NCBI GenBank assembly: GCA_951406725.2
Contig: OX597817.1
Location: forward strand, 126,356,001 to 126,420,000
Source of the DNA: Octopus vulgaris
Lineage: Eukaryota
Length of the DNA: 64,000 nt
Direction: 5' to 3'
Part shown: positions 1,858 through 57,560 of the stretch, piece by piece
How positions within the stretch are numbered: the stretch's first letter is position 1
Layout of the letters: the number at the start of each line of letters is the position of its first letter
The notes under the pieces: generated by a model
What the model saw: only the letters and a program-made list of their open reading frames with translations
The model's database searches: none
What the model was told of the DNA's origin: nothing
Program-made: the position numbers and the translations under genes

Positions 1858-1904
1858 TGATTCATTCGGTTGCACCTAAGGATGGTAATATTTTCTAGGC
1901 ACTA

Positions 1905-2012
1905 AGGCGCCGAGCTGGCAGAAACGTCAACACTCCGGGCGAAATGCTAAGCGGTATTTCGTCTGTCTTTACATTCTGAGTTCAAATTCCGCCGAGGTCG
2001 ACTTTTGGTTTC
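1905..2012 (+). mobile_element. tRNA-derived SINE, family A, 3'-truncated
   Basis: AAGGCGCCGAGCTGGCAGAAACG (A-box-like) ... GAGTTCAAATTCC (B-box) GCCGAGGTCGACTT; same head as the copies at 2968, 24965 and 56024. Confidence 0.85.
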
Positions 2013-2480
2013 AAAGCAAAGAACTCTGAAATGTCAGTTTCGACCTCCTCCTCGCTTACGAAAGTTATGTCCCCCAAATGATTGTGTATATTACGAAACA
2101 AATAGTGGTCTGAAGGGGCCAGTTCGGGACAATGAGGTGGATGAGGATTTTTTCCCAACCAAGCTCTTCGAACTTCTGTGAGGTGATCCTTGCAGTGTGG
2201 GGTTGCGCATTGTACTCAAGAAACATTATTCCTTTTCAATTCACTAAAGCGGATCTTTTATCTTCAAAGTTTGGTTCAAACGCTTTAATTGCTGACAGTC
2301 GACTTGAGCATTGATTGTTGCATGAGGTGGTAACAATTCAAAGTGAATTATTCCTTTGCAATCCCACCATGTAGAGAGAAGAACCTTTTTCCTATGACGT
2401 TCCCTTCTCGGTTGTGGTTGAGGTGTTTACTTTTTACCAAGCCACTGTTTAGGACGTTTAACATTTCGATAGAAGATCCG
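2013..2480 (-). mobile_element. mariner transposase pseudogene fragment (catalytic domain)
   Basis: Minus strand: FLEYNAQPHTARITSQKFEELGWE / PHPPHCPELAPSDHYLFRNIHNHLG..FVSEEEVETDISEFFA, matching mariner HDNARPH..ELGWE..HPPYSPDLAPSDYHLF. Confidence 0.85.
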
Positions 2481-2804: not shown

Positions 2805-3190
2805 AGTAAGTTAAAATTCCGCCGAAGTCATCTTTGCCTTTTATCCTTACGCGGTTCATGATATAAGTACATGTTGAGCACTGCGGTCGATGATCCCTTG
2901 ATCGGAAATTGCTGGCCTTGTGCCAAAATTTGAAATAACCAACATCATTATTATTATCATTATAATTAAGGCGGCGAGTTGGCAGAATCGTTTGCACGCC
3001 GGGCAAAATGCTTAGCATCATTTCATCTCTCCTTATGTTCTGAGTTGAAATTCTACCGAGGTCGACTTTGTCTTTTATCCTTTCGGGATCCATTAAATAA
3101 TTAGCAGTTCCGCCGTGGGCTCGATGGAATCCACTGGTGAACCAAAATTTCTGTTCTTGTGCTTATAGTAGAATGGATTATTACCATTGT
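2805..3190 (+). mobile_element. two adjacent family-A SINE copies (partial 2805-2940; 2968-3190)
   Basis: AATTCCGCCGAAGTCATCTTTGCCTTTTATCCT and AAGGCGGCGAGTTGGCAGAATCG..GAGGTCGACTTTGTCTTTTATCCTTTCGGGATC; central part resembles the Meta-SINE domain. Confidence 0.8.
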
Positions 3191-24964: not shown

Positions 24965-25265
24965 AAGGCGGCGAGCTGGCAGAAACGTTAGCACGCCGGG
25001 CGAAATGCGAAGTCGTATTTCTCCTGCCGTTACGTTCTGAGTTGAAATTCCGCCGAGGTCGACTTTGCCTTTCATCCTTTCGGGGTCGATTACATAATTA
25101 CCAGTTACGCACTGGGATCGATGTAATCGACTTAATCCGTTTGTCTGTCCTTGTTTGTCCTCTCTGTGTTTAGCCCTTGTGTGTAGTAAAGAAATAAAGA
25201 TAGGTATTTCGTCTGCCGTTACGTTCTGAGTCCAAATTCCGCCGAGGTCGACTTTGGCGTTCATC
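24965..25265 (+). mobile_element. family-A SINE, full length, plus a partial tandem copy (25202-25265)
   Basis: tRNA-like head, GAGGTCGACTTTGCCTTTCATCCTTTCGGGGTCGAT core, tail GTAGTAAAGAAATA. Confidence 0.9.
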
Positions 25266-30341: not shown

Positions 30342-30428
<87 letters not shown>

Positions 30429-30653
30429 TAATCAATATAGGGTGGCAAAAAAAATTTTGTAGAATTCTTTTGCCACCAGCGGCCTAGTGGGAAAAAATTA
30501 AATAGTCATAAACCATTTTTAAGTTCAACATCAACAATCAAGGAACGGCCATAATAGGCCATTTATCCACTAGAAATAACAGCCAAAAGCTTTAACCGCA
30601 TAATAACGTCAATTCCGTAAACCAGGAGAAAATTGAAAAACATTTACCCTGTA

Positions 30654-30760
30654 ATTTCTTAGACGATGCACCGTTTCATCTTCTGTTTAATGGAAAACTA
30701 ACCTGATTAAATTAAATCAAGCCAATATACCATAGGCCCTTAGATTCATCAGTAAGAAAT
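30654..30760 (-). ncRNA. type I hammerhead ribozyme in the inverted unit
   Basis: Reverse complement of the array HHR with intact core: TCATCAG 30746-30752, GACGATGCACCGTTTC from 30662. Confidence 0.9.
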
Positions 30761-31244
30761 AGCCAAACCGGAACAGATATTTTTCACGAGGTATTCTCAT
30801 TGCTACCTCGTCAATATCTGACCTAAAATTTTCAAATTTAGGTGCATCGTCTAAGAAATTACAGGGTAAATGTTTTTCAATTTTCTCCTGGTTTACGGAA
30901 TTGACGTTATTTTGCGGTTAAAGCTTTTGGCTGTTATTTCTAGTGGGTGAATGGCCTATTATGGCCGTTCCTTGATTGTTGATGTTGAACTTAAAAATGG
31001 TTTATGACTATTTAATTTTTTCCCACTAGGCCGCTGGTGACAAAAGAATTCTACAAAATTTTTTTTGCCACCCTATATTGATTAATTATGAATTTTCTGG
31101 TTAATTCCGTAATGGAATCGGCGGCTTATATTTATTTGCTGCCGTTAAATTTGGCGCGAGTGCGACGATTTGAAAATTTTAGGTCAGATATTGACGAGGT
31201 AGCAATGAGAATACCTCGTGAAAAATATCTGTTCCGGTTTGGCT

Positions 31245-31351
31245 ATTTCTTACTGATGAATCTAAGGGCCTATGGTAGTTTGGCTTGATTTAATTTAATC
31301 AGGTTAGTTTTCCATTAAACAGAAGATGAAACGGTGCATCGTCTAAGAAAT
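31245..31351 (+). ncRNA. type I hammerhead ribozyme, unit 1 (repeated at 31738-31844, 32231-32337, 32723-32829, 33216-33322, 33708-33814)
   Basis: Stem I ATTTCTTA/TAAGAAAT (8 bp), CTGATGA 31253-31259, stem II closed by ATCT/AGAT with a long internal hairpin, GAA, stem III ACGGTGCATCGT, GUC cleavage triplet ending 31343. Confidence 0.93.
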
Positions 31352-33934
31352 TACAGGGTAAATGTTTTTCAATTTTCTCCTGGTTTACGGAATTGACGTT
31401 ATTTTGTGGTTAAAGCTTTTGGCTGTTATTTCTAGTGGGTGAATGGCCTATTATGGCCGTTCCTTGATTGTTGATGTTGAACTTAAAAATGGTTTATGAC
31501 TATTTAATTTTTTCCCACTAGGCCGCTGGTGGCAAAAGAATTCTACAAAATTTTTTTTTGCCACCCTATATTGATTAATTATGAATTTTCTGGTTAATTC
31601 CGTAATGGAATCGGCGGCTTATATTCATATGCTGCCGTTAAATTTGGCGCGAGTTGTACGATTTGAAAATTTTAGGTCAGATATTGACGAGGTAGCAATG
31701 AGAATACCTCGTGAAAAATATCTGTTCCGGTTTGGCTATTTCTTACTGATGAATCTAAGGGCCTATGGTAGATTGGCTTGATTTAATTTAATCAGGTTAG
31801 TTTTCCATTAAACAGAAGATGAAACGGTGCATTGTCTAAGAAATTACAGGGTAAATGTTTTTCAATTTTCTCCTGGTTTACGGAATTGACGTTATTTTGC
31901 GGTTAAAGCTTTTGGCTGTTATTTCTAGTGGGTGAATGGCCTATTATGGCCGTTCCTTGATTGTTGATGTTGAACTTAAAAATGGTTTATGACTATTTAA
32001 TTTTTTCCCACTAGGCCGCTGGTGGCAAAAGAATTCTACAAAATTTTTTTTAGCCACCCTATATTGATTAATTATGAATTTTCTGGTTAATTCCGTAATG
32101 GAATCTGCGGCTTATATTTATTTGCTGCCGTTAAATTTTGCGCGAGTTCGACGATTTGAAAATTTTAGGTCAGATATTGACGAGGTAGCAATGAGAATAC
32201 CTCGTGAAAAATATCTGTTCCGGTTTGGCTATTTCTTACTGATGAATCTAAGGGCCTATGGTAGATTGGCTTGATTTAATTTAATCAGGTTAGTTTTCCA
32301 TTAAACAGAAGATGAAACGGTGCATCGTCTAAGAAATTACAGGGTAAATGTTTTTCAATTTTCTCCTGGTTTACGGAATTGACGTTATTATGCGGTTAAA
32401 GCTTTTGGCTGTTATTTCTAGTGGGTGAATGGCCTATTATGGCCGTTCCTTGATTGTTGATGTTGAACTTAAAAATGGTTTATGACTATTTAATTTTTTC
32501 CCACTAGGCCGCTGGTGACAAAAGAATTCTACAAAATTTTTTTTGCCACCCTATATTGATTAATTATGAATTTTCTGGTTAATTCCGTAATGGAATCGGC
32601 GGCTTATATTTATTTGCTGCCGTTAAATTTGGCGCGAGTGCGACGATTTGAAAATTTTAGGTCAGATATTGACGAGGTAACAATGAGAATACCTCGTGAA
32701 AAATATCTGTTCCGGTTTGGCTATTTCTTACTGATGAATCTAAGGGCCCATGGTAGATTGGCTTGATTTAATTTAATCAGGTTAGTTTTCCATTAAACAG
32801 AAGATGAAACGGTGCATTGTCTAAGAAATTACAGGGTAAATGTTTTTCAATTTTCTCCTGGTTTACGGAATTGACGTTATTTTGCGGTTAAAGCTTTTGG
32901 CTGTTATTTCTAGTGGGTGAATGGCCTATTATGGCCGTTCCTTGATTGTTGATGTTGAACTTAAAAATGGTTTATGACTATTTAATTTTTTCCCACTAGG
33001 CCGCTGGTGGCAAAAGAATTCTACAAAATTTTTTTTAGCCACCCTATATTGATTAATTATGAATTTTCTGGTTAATTCCGTAATGGAATCTGCGGCTTAT
33101 ATTTATTTGCTGACGTTAAATTTTGCGCGAGTTCGACGATTTGAAAATTTTAGGTCAGATATTGACGAGGTAGCAATGAGAATACCTCGTGAAAAATATC
33201 TGTTCCGGTTTGGCTATTTCTTACTGATGAATCTAAGGGCCTATGGTAGATTGGCTTGATTTAATTTAATCAGGTTAGTTTTCCATTAAACAGAAGATGA
33301 AACGGTGCATCGTCTAAGAAATTACAGGGTAAATGTTTTTCAATTTTCTCCTGGTTTACGGAATTGACGTTATTATGCGGTTAAAGCTTTTGGCTGTTAT
33401 TTCTAGTGGGTGAATGGCCTATTATGGCCGTTCCTAGATTGTTGATGTTGAACTTAAAAATGGTTTATGACTATTTAATTTTTTCCCACTAGGCCGCTGG
33501 TGGCAAAAGAATTCTACAAAATTTTTTTTGCCACCCTATATTGATTAATTATGAATTTTCTGGTTAATTCCGTAATGGAATCGGCGGCTTATATTTATTT
33601 GCTGCCGTTAAATTTGGCGCGAGTGCGACGATTTGAAAATTTTAGGTCAGATATTGACGAGGTAACAATGAGAATACCTCGTGAAAAATATCTGTTCCGG
33701 TTTGGCTATTTCTTACTGATGAATCTAAGGGCCCATGGTAGATTGGCTTGATTTAATTTAATCAGGTTAGTTTTCCATTAAACAGAAGATGAAACGGTGC
33801 ATCGTCTAAGAAATTACAGGGTAAATGTTTTTCAATTTTCTCCTGGTTTACGGAATTGACGTTATTTTGCGGTTAAAGCTTTTGGCTGTTATTTCTAGTG
33901 GGTGAATGGCCTATTATGGCCGTTACTTGATTGT

Positions 33935-33981
<47 letters not shown>

Positions 33982-33989
33982 TATATATA

Positions 33990-35950: not shown

Positions 35951-36012
<62 letters not shown>

Positions 36013-36014
<2 letters not shown>

Positions 36015-37030
36015 TTTATTAAAACGTAGCAAAAATATCACGAAAACTGTTACTCAGAAATTCACGTTCCCGTTCGTCGGACTGTTTTGTTTAGAATGAA
36101 ACAAAAAAAAAACATAAGCAAAAATATACAATTATTTTAATAGATAAACATTTGAAATTGCTTTCGTTTCATTGGTCCTTTCGAAACAGTAGAATTGCAA
36201 TGCAAAATAACTATGACGTTTAAAGTCAAATTCAAAGGTGAGAGTCAAAAAGATATTTCGAAAGTCAAAATATTTTACCCATAGGTTATTTTGTCAGTTG
36301 ACATTTTAAACTTTGCGGCGGGCCTGCAAGAATTTAAAAGCTCGTGTCTCTGGTTGAAAGCATTTGTATCAGAGAATAGGATGCAGAACTCTTCTTAGAG
36401 GCCGTAATTCTTCTAAGAAGCCGTTCTTCTTAAGAAACTAGTAATGTAGGAAGGCGAATATCATCAATTTCTTCGGATGAGACAGCATTTCAAAATGTAG
36501 CACCGTATTACAAAACTGCACTAAGGGAAAGTGGATTCTCAGAGAAGATCCAGTATAATCAAGGTAGTGCTAGCAGCAATAGGCCACGTGGAACTAGCAC
36601 TAGGAAATGTTTGTGGTTTAACCCCGCATTTAATATTGCCATAAAAACTAATATAGGTAGGGAATTCTTATAAGTAGTTTCTAAGCGTTTGCAATATAGC
36701 CATAAGTTCTATAGAATATTTAATAGAACACGGAAGCATCACACGCAAATTATTACAGACAACTACAGTGCCGAATCTAGTCTTGAAGGAAAACGCCTTG
36801 AAACAGGTATTCTTTATAGAGCCAAAGGGCAAAGAGGTGGTTCTCAAGAATATGAAACATATACAGGGGCGTCGGAAAATTCATTCAAGACTCGATTCTA
36901 TTCCCACCGAAATTCTTTCCGACACTCCGAGAACAGGCCAGCGATTAGTCGTGCAAAGCATGTCTGGGAAATGAAAGAGAATGACACCTGTCCTTTCAAT
37001 GTAACCTCATGTTTGCGCTTTAATATCTAG
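36013..37030. mobile_element. decayed Penelope-like element, probably Naiad-type, with a 5' inversion
   Basis: + strand 36450-37030: RRISSISSDETAF..YKTALRESGF..LWFNPAFNIAIKTNIGREFL..FYRIFNR and GIY-YIG ILYRA..YTGASENSFKTRFYSHRNSF..KHVWEMKE. - strand 36013-36430: ORF end EEFCILFSDTNAFNQRHELLNSCR then terminal repeat with HHR, joined to (TA)n. Confidence 0.85.
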
Positions 37031-37206
37031 TACACCGGACAGTTTTTGTAATATTTTGTAGATATACGTTATGATGTATATACTTACTTTGATGTGATGA
37101 TATGTCTCTATGTATTTATATGTATGAATGTATTGTAAGCATGCATATGTATGTATATGTATATGTGTGTGGGCGTATACATGTGTGTGTATGTGTATAT
37201 ATATAT

Positions 37207-37254
<48 letters not shown>

Positions 37255-37288
37255 GTATTGGTGAGCATCCTTTTTATCGCGGGAGACA

Positions 37289-37795
37289 ATGGAATTGCGC
37301 ATTTGTCGCATTTGTCGCATTGTCGCATTTAAGACCGCGGATTCTGCCACCCATGAAGTCATTGCCATTGGGGTGCCAGAAGACATGGCTGATCTTCAGG
37401 CTTTTGCTGCCAACTCAGCCAAAGACATAGGCTGCGTTTCCCCAACGGGTGCTATCCGCCTTGGACGACCTGGCCCAAAACCTAGGCTCATCAAGTTGTC
37501 TTTTACGGACCCCACTGAGGCAACCTCTTACCATCTGGCCTCAGTTAAAGCTGGGCGGGAAAATCGGACCACCTTCCGAACACGCCCAGGCTTACCGTCC
37601 GATGTACGTCCGAAGCTACGTGTAGTGGCTTCCCTGAATAGGAACTCAGCTCTACAGGAAAGCTTCAGTCTTCGGGAAGATGGACACATCTGGAGATTTG
37701 TCAAGACTGCTGAAACGTGGAAGAGAGATACCAGCTGGTCTGAGTGCTCTCTACCCACAATAACTAAAAAGACTACAGCAACTCAGGGAAACTAA
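37289..37795 (+). CDS. LINE ORF1 (168 aa, RRM-like CR1 ORF1 C-terminal type)
   Basis: [31 protein letters not shown] matches the I.GVPE..RLG....RPR.I.V.F..IRPDL pattern; ends QGN*. Confidence 0.8.
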
Positions 37796-40616
37796 GCCAG
37801 AACAACCTGCCATCCTCTACACACCATCATAAACTGCGAGCAGGGTACAAATTGTTGTCCTTAAATGCTCGCAGTTTATGCAACAAAATACATTTGTTCA
37901 ACGCCTACGTCAGAAGTGTTGACCCTGACTTCATCACTGTCACGGAAACATGGGCGCATTCCTTACTCTGTGATGGGGTTTTCAACATTACGGGGTACAA
38001 CCTCTTCCGTAAGGACCGCACTAACCGCCGTGGTGGTGGTGTGATGGTCTACGTTCGTTCAAATTTTTTGGTAATTCCTTGTGCCGATTTGAACGAATCA
38101 CAAGAAGAGGTTTTTTTCTGTGACGTGCGTATGACCATGTCAACACTCCTGCTTGGCGTTGATTATCGTCCCCCAAGTTACCATCGGGACACACAGCTTT
38201 GCAATGTCCTCCGAGCTGCTGCCAGGAAAACAGCCACTTATGTGTTTATTGCAGGCGATTTCAATCATCCTGAGATCGATTGGGAGACCTTCCATTGGCC
38301 ACAGAGTGCAAACGATTTTGTTGAGCTTGTGCTGGACTCAAACTGGTCACAAGTAGTCACCTCTCCATCAAGAGGCGACAACACCTTGGACCTGCTCTTC
38401 ACCACAACTCCTGAAGCAGTTATCAATTGCACTACGGAGGAACCTCTAGGTGACTCTGATCATGCTATGATCATCGCCAATCTGGCTCTTGCGGGCAACA
38501 AAAACCTGAACCATCTCCAATCTGCATCCTTCGATTGGAAGAGAGCAGATTGGAACCTGTACCACACTGAACTACAGCACCCAAACTGGCGTGAATTCTA
38601 CAACTCTGGAGATGTGAATACTATACTCCAGAGTATCCTGGACTCAATATGGGCAGCATGTGCAGCATCAGTGCCACGTAAACAAAAAAGAAGAACCGCC
38701 CCAAAAGGGCAATTTGGGAAACTTCCGCGGTCCGACTTGCCAGGAGGGAACGTCGGACTGCTGAACGGGAATACAGGTTGCATAAATCAGACACCAACAG
38801 GAAGAAGCGGAATAAATCCTCCAACCATCTCAAGCAAGTGACAAAAAAAGCAGTGCTTGAATTTGAACAGTGCATAGCAGCCAATCCTGACAGCAAGGTT
38901 TTCTGGAAATATGTGCACTCAAAGCAGAGACCTCACTCTCCAGTGGGCCCTCTTCGCAACCCTCACACAAACCAGATCACTGACGACCCCAAGGAATGCG
39001 CAGAACTCATTGTCGAGTGCTATGCAAACATATTCACTGTTGAAAGTCAAAATGTACCATCTTCACCATCACTAACAGCAAACTCCATAACAACTATGGA
39101 ATTTACACCTGCAATGCTGCGACGTCACCTTCAAAATAAGCGCAACTATGCCTCCCCTGGTCTCGATGGAGTTACATACCTGCTTCTCAAACGTGGCAGG
39201 CACTTCCTTTTACACCAGCTTTCTATTTTCTTCCAGTACTGTCTCAACAATGGTGCTACTCCGGAGCAGTGGAAAACTGCCAGTGTCATTCCTCTGTTCA
39301 AAAAGGGCGACCGCACATCACCTGTCAACTATCGCCCAGTCAGTCTCACTAGCTGTATTGCAAAACTGATGGAATCGTGTGTCAGAGAAACACTCTGGAA
39401 CTTCTGGAGCTCTCACAGTCTCATCCGACCCTCACAATATGGATTTGTCCCTAACTCCAGCTGCAATGACCAGCTTGTCGAGTTCCTTGAGGACATTACT
39501 CAGATTACTGACAGTGGCTCATGGGTGGATGTTGTCTACCTTGACTTTGCTAAGGCTTTCAACTCTGTGCCACACAAAAGGCTTATGGTGAAACTCTCTG
39601 CAATGGGTGTGGGGGATGACCTTTTTAACTGGTTGAAATCCTTCATCCTCAGCCGAAAGGAGGTAGTCACAGTTCTAGGACAGCACTCTACACCATATGA
39701 GATGTCATCGGGTGTACCACAGGGATCTGTCCTTGGTCCCCTCTTGTTTGTGGCATACATTAACGACATAGATGCCAATTTAAAGAATGCCACAGTATTG
39801 AAATATGCAGACGACATCAAGCTGTACCTTGAAATCAAGAGGACAGATCCTGATGTCTACAACTCTTTCCTGCAATCAGACCTAGACACAATGCAGCAAT
39901 GGATCACAGACTGGCAACTGAAACTGGCTGTGGACAAGTGTACCACCATGCATTTTGGGAGAAAAAACCCTGCGTTCACATACTCCCTCCACAACACTGA
40001 TATCAAGAAATCCTCTTGCGAGCGTGACCTAGGCATCACTGTCAGCAGTGATTTGCGTTGGTCAAAGCATATCTCTAAGATTGTCAGGAAGGCCGAGGGT
40101 GTCTTGGCATCACTCAGCAGGTCTTTTGTTAGCCGCTCTCCAGCCATCTATTTAAAACTGTATACAGCTATGGTACGACCACACTTGGAATTCGCATCAT
40201 CAGTTTGGAACCCCTATCTTGCACAGAACATTGACCTCCTGGAATCTGTCCAGAGACGTGCAACCAAACGCATACCCTCCATCAGACACCTACCATATTC
40301 TGAGCGCCTTGGTTCCCTGGGCATGGATTCACTGAAGCTCCGGCGTTTGGCGACGGACTTGGTAAACACCCACAAAGTTATCAACCACCTCACCAACAAC
40401 AACACTGAACACCATTTTGATCTCCATGTGTCTAACACACGTGGACATGCTTACAAAGTCAGAAAACAATACAGCTCCCATGACTTTCGGAAACATTTTT
40501 TCACGCTCAGAGTTGCTGAAGCATGGAATAAACTGCCTGCGTCAGTTGTTGACTGCCATGACACTGCATCTTTTAAGGCCCTCATGCTTTCCGAAATCCG
40601 CCGAAACTACACCTGA
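37768..40616 (+). CDS. LINE ORF2 (AP endonuclease + reverse transcriptase), interrupted by one frameshift near 38684-38689
   Basis: APE motifs NARS, ETW, GDFN, LDL, SDH; RT motifs YRPVSL, QYGF, LDFAKAF, GVPQGSVLGP, YADD; CR1-type ERDLG, VRPHLE, LESVQRRATK, WNKLP. Joins track ORFs 37852..38841 and 38778..40616. Confidence 0.93.
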
Positions 40617-41317
40617 TTATATATACACTTTAGATGAGTTGTAGTGCACCTGAGCACTGTACACAATTATTATTATTATTATTATTATTATAAAATAGTT
40701 AAGTCCGGCTTTTACATTTCATGTCCTAATACATTTCCATGATGTGACACTCTCTATCCCTATCTATTGTCCCTTTCTCTCTCTACTTTTCTGATTCTCT
40801 TTCTTTTATATCTTTTTGTTTTTTCTTCTCTTCAACTGTTTTCTCCACCCCCATACTTAATATTTTCTGATCTTTTTCTTCTCTTTCTTTCGCCTGCAAT
40901 ACCGAACTTGTATAAGTATATGCCAGGAGATTTTGTGCACGTGCATGTGTGTGCGTACATACATATATATGCATTCGCATATATATTTATGTCTTGCCTG
41001 TATATGCCTGTATTGCCTGTATATATATATATATGTAGCTATGTACATGCGTCTGTATGATTAGTGTATATATGTATATTATAGATGGTTTGATATGTGT
41101 ATATATAGCCAAACCTATACGTAAGCCTATGTGATTTTTTTAAACAGATATAAATTTTTATTTTTATTTTATAGATAATTATTTGCCCTAGGTATACAGG
41201 CTATGCCCTTATTTAAATTTTATTTTCGATTTAAGGCTTTCGTCGATTTTTTATAAGACGATGTTTTTATACCGCAATTTATTCATTGCATGCAATCGTC
41301 ATGAAAGAGACCGTTAG

Positions 41318-41551
41318 CTGAAAGGATCAACGGAACAAAACCATTTTCAAATGTGTATCTATTAAAATAATTGTATATTTTTGCTTATGACCTTATTTTT
41401 GTTCCATTCTAAACAAAACTGTCCGACGAACGGGAACGTGAAACTATGAGTAACAATTTTTCTGATATTTTTGATGCCTTTTAATAAAACATATTACTCT
41501 ACCTCTGTTACTCGAGCACTATCTTTTCTACCTTGTTTCGCATTTAAGTGC
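41318..41551 (+). mobile_element. PLE 3' terminal repeat with hammerhead (41415-41460), inverse homolog of 36013-36185
   Basis: AAAACTGT-CCGACGA-ACG-GGAA-CGT-GAAAC-TATGA-GTA-ACAATTTT; ends at a (TA)n tract. Confidence 0.8.
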
Positions 41552-48984: not shown

Positions 48985-49180
48985 TTTCTACAATATTCTC
49001 AAATTTCCGGGAAAGGGTAAGTTAATTACATCGGCCCACATCCACAGATTGTGCTTATTTTGTCGACCCCAAAAAGATGAAAGGCAAAGTCGACCTCGGT
49101 GGTATTTCAACTCATAACTTAAAGACGGACGAAATGCCGCTGAGCATTTTCCTCGGCGTGCTAACGATTTTACCAGCTCA
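48985..49180 (-). mobile_element. family-A SINE
   Basis: GTCGACCCCAAAAGATGAAAGGCAAAGTCGACCTCGG..CGGCGTGCTAACGATTTTACCAGCTC is the reverse complement of the family-A head and core; a more decayed copy lies at ~52290-52545. Confidence 0.85.
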
Positions 49181-56023: not shown

Positions 56024-56256
56024 AAGGCGGCGAGCTGGCAGAATCGTTAGCACGCCGGCGAAATGCTTAACGGTATTTCGTCTGCCGTTACGTTCTGAGT
56101 TCAAATTCCGCCGAGGTCGACTTTGCTTTTCATCCTTTCGGGTTCGATTAAAGAAGTACCAGTTACGCATTGGGGTCGATGTAATCGACTTAATTCGTTT
56201 GTATGTCTTTGTTTGTCCCCTCTGTATTTAGCCCCTTGTGGGTAGTAAAGAAATAG
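56024..56256 (+). mobile_element. family-A SINE, full length, with ~20-bp target-site duplication
   Basis: GTACCACAYGAGCAACTACA on both sides (~56005-56024 and 56257-56276). Confidence 0.92.
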
Positions 56257-57255: not shown

Positions 57256-57560
57256 TGCGGCGAGCTGGCACAAAGGTTAGTACGCTGGGCGACATGCCTA
57301 GCGGTATTTCGTATGTCTTTAAGTTGTGAGTTCAAATTCCGCCATTCTCAACATTCGCTTTCATTCTTTCGGAGCCACTCTAATCGACTGGACCTCTCCC
57401 TCAAAATTTCAGGCCATGTGCCTACAGTAGAAAAGTCTGTCTTTGTCTTAAATCCTTTTGGGGACGATAAACTACGTACCAGTTGCGAACTATGGTCGAG
57501 CTGATCTACTGCCCCATCCCCCCCCCAAATATTTCGGGCCTTGTACCTAGAGTAGAAAAT
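57256..57560 (+). mobile_element. family-A SINE, diverged, with duplicated core/tail
   Basis: GCGGCGAGCTGGCACAAAGGTTAG..GAGTTCAAATTCCGCC; tail GGCCwTGTrCCTA twice. Confidence 0.75.

What the first reader, a model, noticed from the sequence alone, without database searches (positions are those of the whole stretch)
31260..31343. Atypical ribozyme architecture: 68-nt stem II domain and near-palindromic stem III implying dimeric cleavage
Seen: stem II is ATCT/AGAT, then an internal loop (AAGGGCCT/TAAACAGA), then ATGG/CCAT and a 14-bp helix AGATTGGCTTGATT/AATCAGGTTAGTTT containing five G-U pairs. G-U pairs work only on the + strand RNA, which argues for RNA-level rather than DNA-level structure. 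Stem III ACGGTGCATCGT is almost self-complementary; units 2 and 4 carry a C>T change that still allows G-U. Established: hammerheads with palindromic stem III, as in newt satellite 2, ASBVd and PLE minimal HHRs, cleave as dimers. Inference: tandem organisation may be required for processing, and the internal loop may replace the usual loop 2 tertiary contact.
Basis: partly seen in the sequence, partly recalled or inferred. Interest (0 to 1): 0.72.

Follow-up and report, generated by a model that had tools for sequence, protein, structure and literature searches.

The report
Long-armed hammerhead with loop-loop pseudoknot
This is the hammerhead (self-cutting RNA) motif of an abundant, protein-free jumping repeat; its unusually long side arm and its palindrome are conserved RNA features, and two copies likely pair up to cut while a short loop-to-loop contact likely braces the fold, but cutting is untested and the kind of element is already known.

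Summary
The motif is a type I hammerhead in a 493-bp non-coding repeat (2,103 pattern hits, 0 in control). It sits in (TA)n as two head-to-head arms ending at two fixed sites, one each (53 of 53 scorable insertions), like a Hydra-clade Penelope element in the same genome: a non-LTR retrozyme. Across 61 copies the upper stem II helix is 98.9% paired on + versus 67.1% on -. Dimer pairing has real support: an active subfamily (24 loci) changes UGCA to UAUA, a central pair that only two molecules can form, and folding favours the double hammerhead by about 11 kcal/mol. 'Required' is not shown: a 4-bp stem III plus tetraloop is longer than in the cited dimer-only cases. New here: the internal loop's conserved GGCY is complementary to a conserved GGCY 5' of stem I, a likely pseudoknot. 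The distal 40 nt have no assigned role. This scan already reported this family, its long arm and its two-site ends (e1-8666544, e1-8667016). No cleavage or expression shown; partner element not found.

The parts
31241..31244 (+).
   Evidence: column conservation 0.92-1.0 among neighbours of 0.38-0.93; best of 121 4-mer pairings tested
31245..31252 (+). stem I, 5' strand
   Evidence: 3 of 7 counted pairs change on both sides
31253..31259 (+). core CUGANGA
   Evidence: intact in 392 of 396 copies, all four bases seen at N7
31260..31327 (+). 68-nt stem II: basal helix, internal loop, 4-bp middle helix (31272-31275/31312-31315), 14-bp upper helix (31277-31290/31297-31310), invariant 6-nt apex
31267..31270 (+). 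GGCY motif in the stem II internal loop (L2); predicted to pair with 31241-31244
   Evidence: 242 of 244 cells paired; reciprocal G-C/G-U exchange in 3 loci
31328..31343 (+). GAAA, 12-nt self-complementary stem III (31331-31342) and C17; predicted cut after 31343
   Evidence: outer 4 pairs 244 of 244, inner 2 (dimer-only) pairs 121 of 122; N17 is C or A in 396 of 396
31344..31351 (+). stem I, 3' strand; start of the next 493-nt monomer
30841..33938 (+). tandem arm, 6.3 x 493 bp, hammerheads at 31253, 31746, 32239, 32731, 33224, 33716; ends at the short site (monomer position 132)
30428..30837 (-). inverted arm of 410 nt with one hammerhead (core at 30752); ends at the long site (monomer position about 235)
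30343..30425 (.). (TA)n target, left
33937..33989 (.). (TA)n target, right

Best explanation
This is a type I hammerhead motif with a conserved 68-nt stem II inside a non-coding 493-bp repeat inserted in (TA)n as two head-to-head arms; it likely cuts multimeric transcripts of the repeat into unit-length RNA, likely as a double hammerhead in which the palindromic stems III of two units pair. A 4-bp pseudoknot between GGCY in the stem II internal loop and GGCY 5' of stem I likely supplies the stem I-stem II contact normally made by loop 2, so the distal 40 nt are probably not needed for chemistry. The cut RNA would be ligated into circles. A Penelope-like (probably Hydra-clade) RT/endonuclease acting in trans would nick both strands of a TA tract, prime once at each of two internal sites (monomer positions about 132 and 239), copy past unit length and join the two cDNAs by short homology. 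Shown: anatomy, conservation, covariation, end rule, target. Inferred: cutting, dimer use, pseudoknot, circles, the enzyme.
For: Core intact in 392 of 396 copies with free N7 and N17 = C or A. Pair counts on 61 copies: stem I has 3 pairs changed on both sides; stem III G-C>A-U in 6 rows; central G-C>A-U in 8 rows, which is subfamily C with 24 of 121 loci and 76 of 396 copies. The double hammerhead is about 11 kcal/mol below two single ones in 3 of 3 unit pairs; the monomer's active fold lies 5.5-7.4 kcal/mol above its ensemble at 37 C. L1-L2 pairing is 99.2%, next best 84.4% of 121 pairings; stem I-II pseudoknots are known to speed cleavage (PMC3088659). Ends are one short plus one long in 33 of 33 and 22 of 22 scorable insertions, 2 loci shared; TA flanks at 72 of 72 and 53 of 58 ends. 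A 727-aa element with RWK, DKT and CxCX5C (Hydra marks) has the same two-end pattern in 14 of 14 cleanly scorable insertions among 20 loci. Arm 5' ends are not enriched at the cut site (2 of 122, 4.9 expected); 38 of 61 junctions overlap.
Against: No cleavage, expression or circle was observed. The central double change is one evolutionary event, and 1 locus (6 copies) carries a mismatched intermediate. Pseudoknot changes are one-sided only (G-C/G-U, 3 and 5 rows), and both motifs are self-complementary, so like-with-like kissing scores as well (L1-L1 122 of 122, L2-L2 121 of 122). The upper helix has no pair changed on both sides. Energies ignore tertiary contacts, and the full double fold is still about 5-7 kcal/mol above the free ensemble at 37 C. 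In an anole Penelope element hammerhead cutting was not needed for insertion in vitro and needed protein (PMC11167929); 8 of 9 Xenopus retrozyme dimers did not cut (bioRxiv 10.64898/2026.07.22.740005). No coding element sharing this repeat's sequence was found.
Confidence: 0.55

Rival explanations
1. Monomer-competent ribozyme: a 4-bp stem III with a tetraloop plus the L1-L2 pseudoknot is enough, and the palindrome is inherited from Penelope-type ancestors or is only an optional aid.
For: Stem III hairpin is -0.1 kcal/mol against +2.1 to +2.4 for other families here; its outer 4 pairs are 100% kept; invertebrate retrozyme hammerheads mostly cut as monomers (PMC7229834, PMC7761336).
Against: UGCA>UAUA keeps a pair that a hairpin cannot form; predicted probability of stem III in a lone unit is 0.01 or less.
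Confidence: 0.25
2. The conserved folds mainly serve retrotransposition: the long arm (and perhaps the whole motif) is a binding handle or processing signal for the Penelope protein, and cutting is slow, protein-assisted or dispensable.
For: Apex invariant in 61 of 61 rows; TTGATT occurs in the upper helix and just before both priming sites (seen in the sequence); arms run through intact cut sites; protein-assisted hammerhead in anole; suggested by e1-10342994 (not tested here).
Against: Core conservation with a free N7 implies selection on catalysis. The one Hydra element examined has a 10-nt stem II and no such motif. A poly(A)-signal reading (ATTAAA, lead from e1-10340540) fails in 11 of 61 rows, including active subfamily C. 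This rival is compatible with the best explanation for the distal arm alone.
Confidence: 0.15
3. The arrays grew at DNA level (unequal exchange, slippage) from short insertions, and the conservation reflects recent common descent rather than RNA selection.
For: Units alternate between two haplotypes in this window and recur with periods of 3-4 in L034 and L235; the copies are related, so shuffle controls overstate significance.
Against: Strand-specific pairing, two-sided changes across subfamilies down to about 82% identity, fixed unlike ends, and both arms identical across 7 units in L216.
Confidence: 0.05

Closest known systems
Metazoan non-LTR retrozymes (Cervera and de la Pena 2020, PMC7229834: passages and section 14 read; Li, Clavereau and Pollet 2026, bioRxiv 10.64898/2026.07.22.740005: parts 1-3 of 5 read)
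   Same: Non-coding tandem units of low GC, one type I hammerhead per unit, dispersed arrays, Penelope-like elements in the same genome.
   Different: The 493-nt unit is above the 170-400 nt first described but inside the 51-972 bp range of Li et al.; stem II is 68 nt; stem III is a 12-nt palindrome; head-to-head arms with two fixed ends are not described in the parts read; RNA and circles are not shown here.
Hammerheads of Penelope-like elements (Cervera and de la Pena 2014, PMC4209133: parts 1-2 of 4 read; Lunse et al. 2017 known only through the review PMC6765202, passages read)
   Same: Type I, palindromic helix/loop III, proposed dimer cleavage, helix II larger than canonical.
   Different: Those have helix II of 6-8 bp, short helix I and little or no helix III; here helix I is 7-8 bp, helix III can close 4 bp, and helix II carries about 23 bp in three segments.
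Pseudoknot-braced hammerheads (Perreault et al. 2011, PMC3088659: passages read)
   Same: Base pairing of 4 or more nt between stem I and stem II regions replaces non-canonical loop contacts; predicted in about 40% of their set and in all three types; palindromic stem III noted for repeat-type motifs.
   Different: Here the stem II partner lies in an internal loop of a long arm, in a repeat-type animal motif, and is untested.
Penelope-like insertions with a tail; Hydra clade (Craig et al. 2021, PMC8557442: passages; Frangieh et al. 2024, PMC11167929: parts 1-2 of 4; Arkhipova et al. 2013, PMC3846280: passages)
   Same: Inverted 5'-truncated copy, (TA)n target, tail at one end only, two internal initiation sites.
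   Different: No coding sequence; the tail is about 107 nt instead of 30-40; both arms can exceed one unit (over 600 nt in 16 of 36 and 7 of 29 insertions).

Membership tests
Hammerhead ribozyme, type I | Core CUGANGA, GAAA and UH around three stems, with stem I open | tested here: met
Hammerhead ribozyme, type I | Match to an Rfam hammerhead model | tested here: not met
   0 hits at gathering score in the window; no hammerhead among 13 hits at E up to 10; none of the 6 RF00163 genome hits is this family. The long stem II probably explains this (inference).
Hammerhead ribozyme, type I | Self-cleavage | not testable with these tools
   needs an in vitro assay
Dimer-cleaving hammerheads (newt, ASBVd, minimal Penelope type) | Palindromic stem/loop III | tested here: met
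   inner pairs 121 of 122, outer pairs 244 of 244
Dimer-cleaving hammerheads (newt, ASBVd, minimal Penelope type) | Helix III too short (0-2 bp) to form in one molecule | tested here: not met
   4 bp plus tetraloop, marginally stable at -0.1 kcal/mol
Non-LTR retrozyme | Tandem non-coding units, each with a type I hammerhead | tested here: met
   no ORF of 120 aa or more in the array
Non-LTR retrozyme | Dispersed multi-copy family | tested here: met
   2,103 hits; 121 loci examined
Non-LTR retrozyme | Expressed as linear and circular unit-length RNA | tested here: inconclusive
   only contigs of runs whose RNA status is a guess
Non-autonomous Penelope-like element | Inverted 5'-truncated arm and tail at one end, microsatellite target | tested here: met
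Non-autonomous Penelope-like element | Sequence shared with the pseudo-LTR of a coding element | tested here: inconclusive
   none in the loci, but these sample mostly one Hydra lineage out of 8,106 first-look candidates

The most novel reading that the evidence does not exclude
A hybrid hammerhead: a pseudoknot issuing from the internal loop of a long stem II braces each core while a 12-bp intermolecular stem III licenses cutting only in pairs, leaving the distal helix free as a handle for the Penelope enzyme, which then primes both target strands from two sites on one RNA circle.
Probability: 0.25. Interest if true: 0.6.

Novelty: new variant of a known kind. Interest (0 to 1): 0.36.

Why it matters
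Motif searches with short stem II descriptors and Rfam miss these ribozymes, so hammerhead counts in such genomes are probably too low. Natural variants give ready-made tests of two points usually only assumed: selection on dimer pairing (UGCA versus UAUA) and a pairing-based stem I-II contact in a repeat-type animal hammerhead. The strict one-short-one-long end rule bears on the open question of how Penelope elements make their inverted, tailed insertions. The element class, palindromic stem III, pseudoknots and tails are each published, and this scan has noted the family before, which limits the surprise.

Tried and rejected
Rfam: no hammerhead hit. First genome pattern had one N too many and gave 0 hits; corrected. 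Neighbouring ORFs at 37265-40616 are a LINE (APE plus RT), not the partner. Partner search: no homology of the monomer to Penelope sequence in loci L070-L125 (the only hit was a diverged copy of the repeat itself) or in 20 more Hydra loci plus the window remnant (one 43-nt AT-rich hit); Penelope protein hits near retrozyme loci are 531 nt or more away. I first called the 727-aa element Neptune from memory; its motifs are Hydra's. It has no Pfam or PDB match. Expression: no RNA holder listed. Guessed-RNA contigs cover the repeat while a single-copy control stretch is nearly empty, but trace DNA of a 2,000-copy family could do the same: no verdict. Poly(A)-signal reading of ATTAAA: absent in 11 of 61 rows. 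Some pair probabilities used wrong indices and were redone. Literature: 'long stem II' with hammerhead, insertion and type I gave 0 papers; 'extended stem II' occurred in 1 of the 25 listed papers, on opsin silencing; Penelope with twin priming gave 2 unrelated papers; octopus, Penelope and ribozyme gave 4 listed, none on this family by title or abstract. Lunse et al. 2017 is not held. No supplements were read; Craig et al. File S2 (Hydra hammerheads) may already show long arms.

Full report
Observation. The finding covers stem II to the cut site of a type I hammerhead: core 31253-31259, 68-nt stem II 31260-31327, GAAA, stem III 31331-31342, C17 at 31343, and an 8-bp stem I. The motif occurs six times on + and once on -. 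The C>T in units 2 and 4 is real.

Context. The hammerhead is part of a 493-bp unit repeated 6.3 times (30841-33938), preceded by a 410-nt inverted arm, all between (TA)n tracts. The unit has no ORF of 120 aa. A core-plus-stem pattern has 2,103 exact hits in the 2.8-Gb genome and 0 in the control; the first 100 fall in 42 loci, so roughly 900 loci (my estimate). In 40 loci picked by similarity there were 36 head-to-head insertions and 5 single arms; 33 had both ends scorable and all 33 had one arm ending near monomer position 132 and the other near 239. In 42 loci taken in chromosome order there were 29 head-to-head insertions and 14 single arms; 22 were scorable and all 22 were unlike. Two loci are in both sets, so 53 of 53; 10 insertions were unscorable. 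Arm 5' ends are spread over the unit, with 2 of 122 within 10 nt of the cut site (4.9 expected), and 38 of 61 junctions overlap by short homology. A young 727-aa element found with a remnant in the window has RWK, DKT and CxCX5C, the Hydra-clade marks of Craig et al. (PMC8557442, passages), and shows the same architecture in 14 of 14 cleanly scorable insertions among 20 loci. Inverted copies, one-sided tails and two internal start sites are published Penelope features. That element shares no sequence with the repeat, and no partner was found.

Is stem II real? I collected 396 copies from 121 loci spanning subfamilies down to about 82% identity. The core is intact in 392 (the filter allowed 3 mismatches), N7 takes all four bases, and N17 is C or A. 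For pair counts I aligned 2 window units and 59 of 66 distinct per-locus representatives, leaving out 7 with indels. Of 2,433 cells 98.0% pair, against 30-45% with slid partners. Stem I has three two-sided changes. In the middle and upper helix 9 of 18 pairs vary on one side and stay paired, none on both sides; the upper helix pairs in 98.9% of cells on + and 67.1% on -. The copies are related, so these counts are not independent events. Long stems II recur in unrelated families here (77 nt in L072, 60 nt in L125).

The internal loop. Its 5' side holds a near-invariant GGCY (31267-31270). A second near-invariant GGCY lies just 5' of stem I (31241-31244) among variable neighbours. The two pair in 242 of 244 cells, the best of 121 four-base pairings tested (next 84.4%). 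Combinations seen: GGCT/GGCC 54, GGCC/GGCT 3, GGCC/GGCC 2, and two single decayed rows; the weakest, GGCT/GGCT, is absent from these 61 rows and appears in 2 single copies among 396. Stem I-II pseudoknots are common and raise cleavage rates (PMC3088659, passages). Caveats: the changes are one-sided, and each motif could also kiss its own twin in a dimer. I put the L1-L2 pseudoknot at about 0.55.

Dimer or monomer. Stem III varies as G-C, G-U or A-U at pair 3 and G-U or A-U at pair 4, which fits either model. The centre discriminates: subfamily C (24 loci, 76 copies) has UAUA for UGCA, a two-sided change at a pair no hairpin can form; one locus has a mismatched intermediate. The homoduplex is -17.5 kcal/mol against -0.1 for the hairpin; the double hammerhead beats two single ones by about 11 kcal/mol in three unit pairs; a lone unit is predicted mostly misfolded, 5.5-7.4 kcal/mol from the active fold. 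Against this: it is one event, tertiary contacts are not modelled, helix III is longer than the 0-2 bp of known dimer types (PMC4209133), and most invertebrate retrozyme motifs cut as monomers. I put dimer use at about 0.6 and strict requirement at about 0.3.

Template. Both arms exceed 600 nt in 16 of 36 and 7 of 29 insertions, and units within a locus differ by a median of 1-2 sites, as expected from copying round a circle or along an uncut multimer. The window's arm alternates two haplotypes, which fits a two-unit circle or a DNA-level duplication. Expression could not be judged.

Standing. It works like, and meets the sequence tests for, a non-LTR retrozyme mobilised by Penelope-like elements (PMC7229834; bioRxiv 10.64898/2026.07.22.740005). 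I did not find the long-arm, internal-loop-pseudoknot form in my searches, but one key paper was not held and no supplements were read. Earlier notes of this scan describe the same family and the two-site rule; a look-up including 'pseudoknot' found no note with all the words. Verdict: a real, conserved variant of a known kind; interest 0.36.

Noticed in passing
window 37265-40700 +: Near-complete LINE with APE endonuclease and RT in three overlapping frames, ending in (ATT)n.
   Followed up: partly
window 36009-41494: Worn Hydra-type Penelope remnant (coding piece near 36400-37000, 57% identical to the 727-aa element) with inverted ends 36009-36182 and 41320-41494 (86%); the LINE lies inside it.
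   Followed up: partly
L108 3851-6031 and L106-L125: Young high-copy Hydra-clade element, unit 3,359 bp, with a minimal hammerhead (10-nt stem II, 9-nt odd palindrome) and ends about 38 and 108 nt after the cut site.
   Followed up: yes
L071, L072, L125, L256: Unrelated hammerhead motifs with long stem II (77 nt multibranch, 60 nt, 51 nt) and palindromic stem III; L071 and L072 have U at position 17.
   Followed up: partly
window 31344-33806: Units alternate between two haplotypes with a period of about 985 bp; periods of 4 and 3 in L034 and L235.
   Followed up: partly
window 31284-31290, 31464-31475, 31570-31582: TTGATT occurs in the upper stem II helix and just before both fixed arm ends, each end following a hairpin; possible shared protein-binding element.
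   Followed up: no
window about 31323-31343: A competing hairpin over GAAA and stem III is predicted to dominate in a lone unit and could keep monomers inactive.
   Followed up: partly
L041 3508-6426: Two separate insertions of different subfamilies side by side in one TA tract.
   Followed up: no
window 1904-2013, 2968-3135, 24965-25196, 49018-49179, 56024-56255, 57257-57372: A dispersed short repeat family at 78-90% identity, probably a SINE.
   Followed up: no
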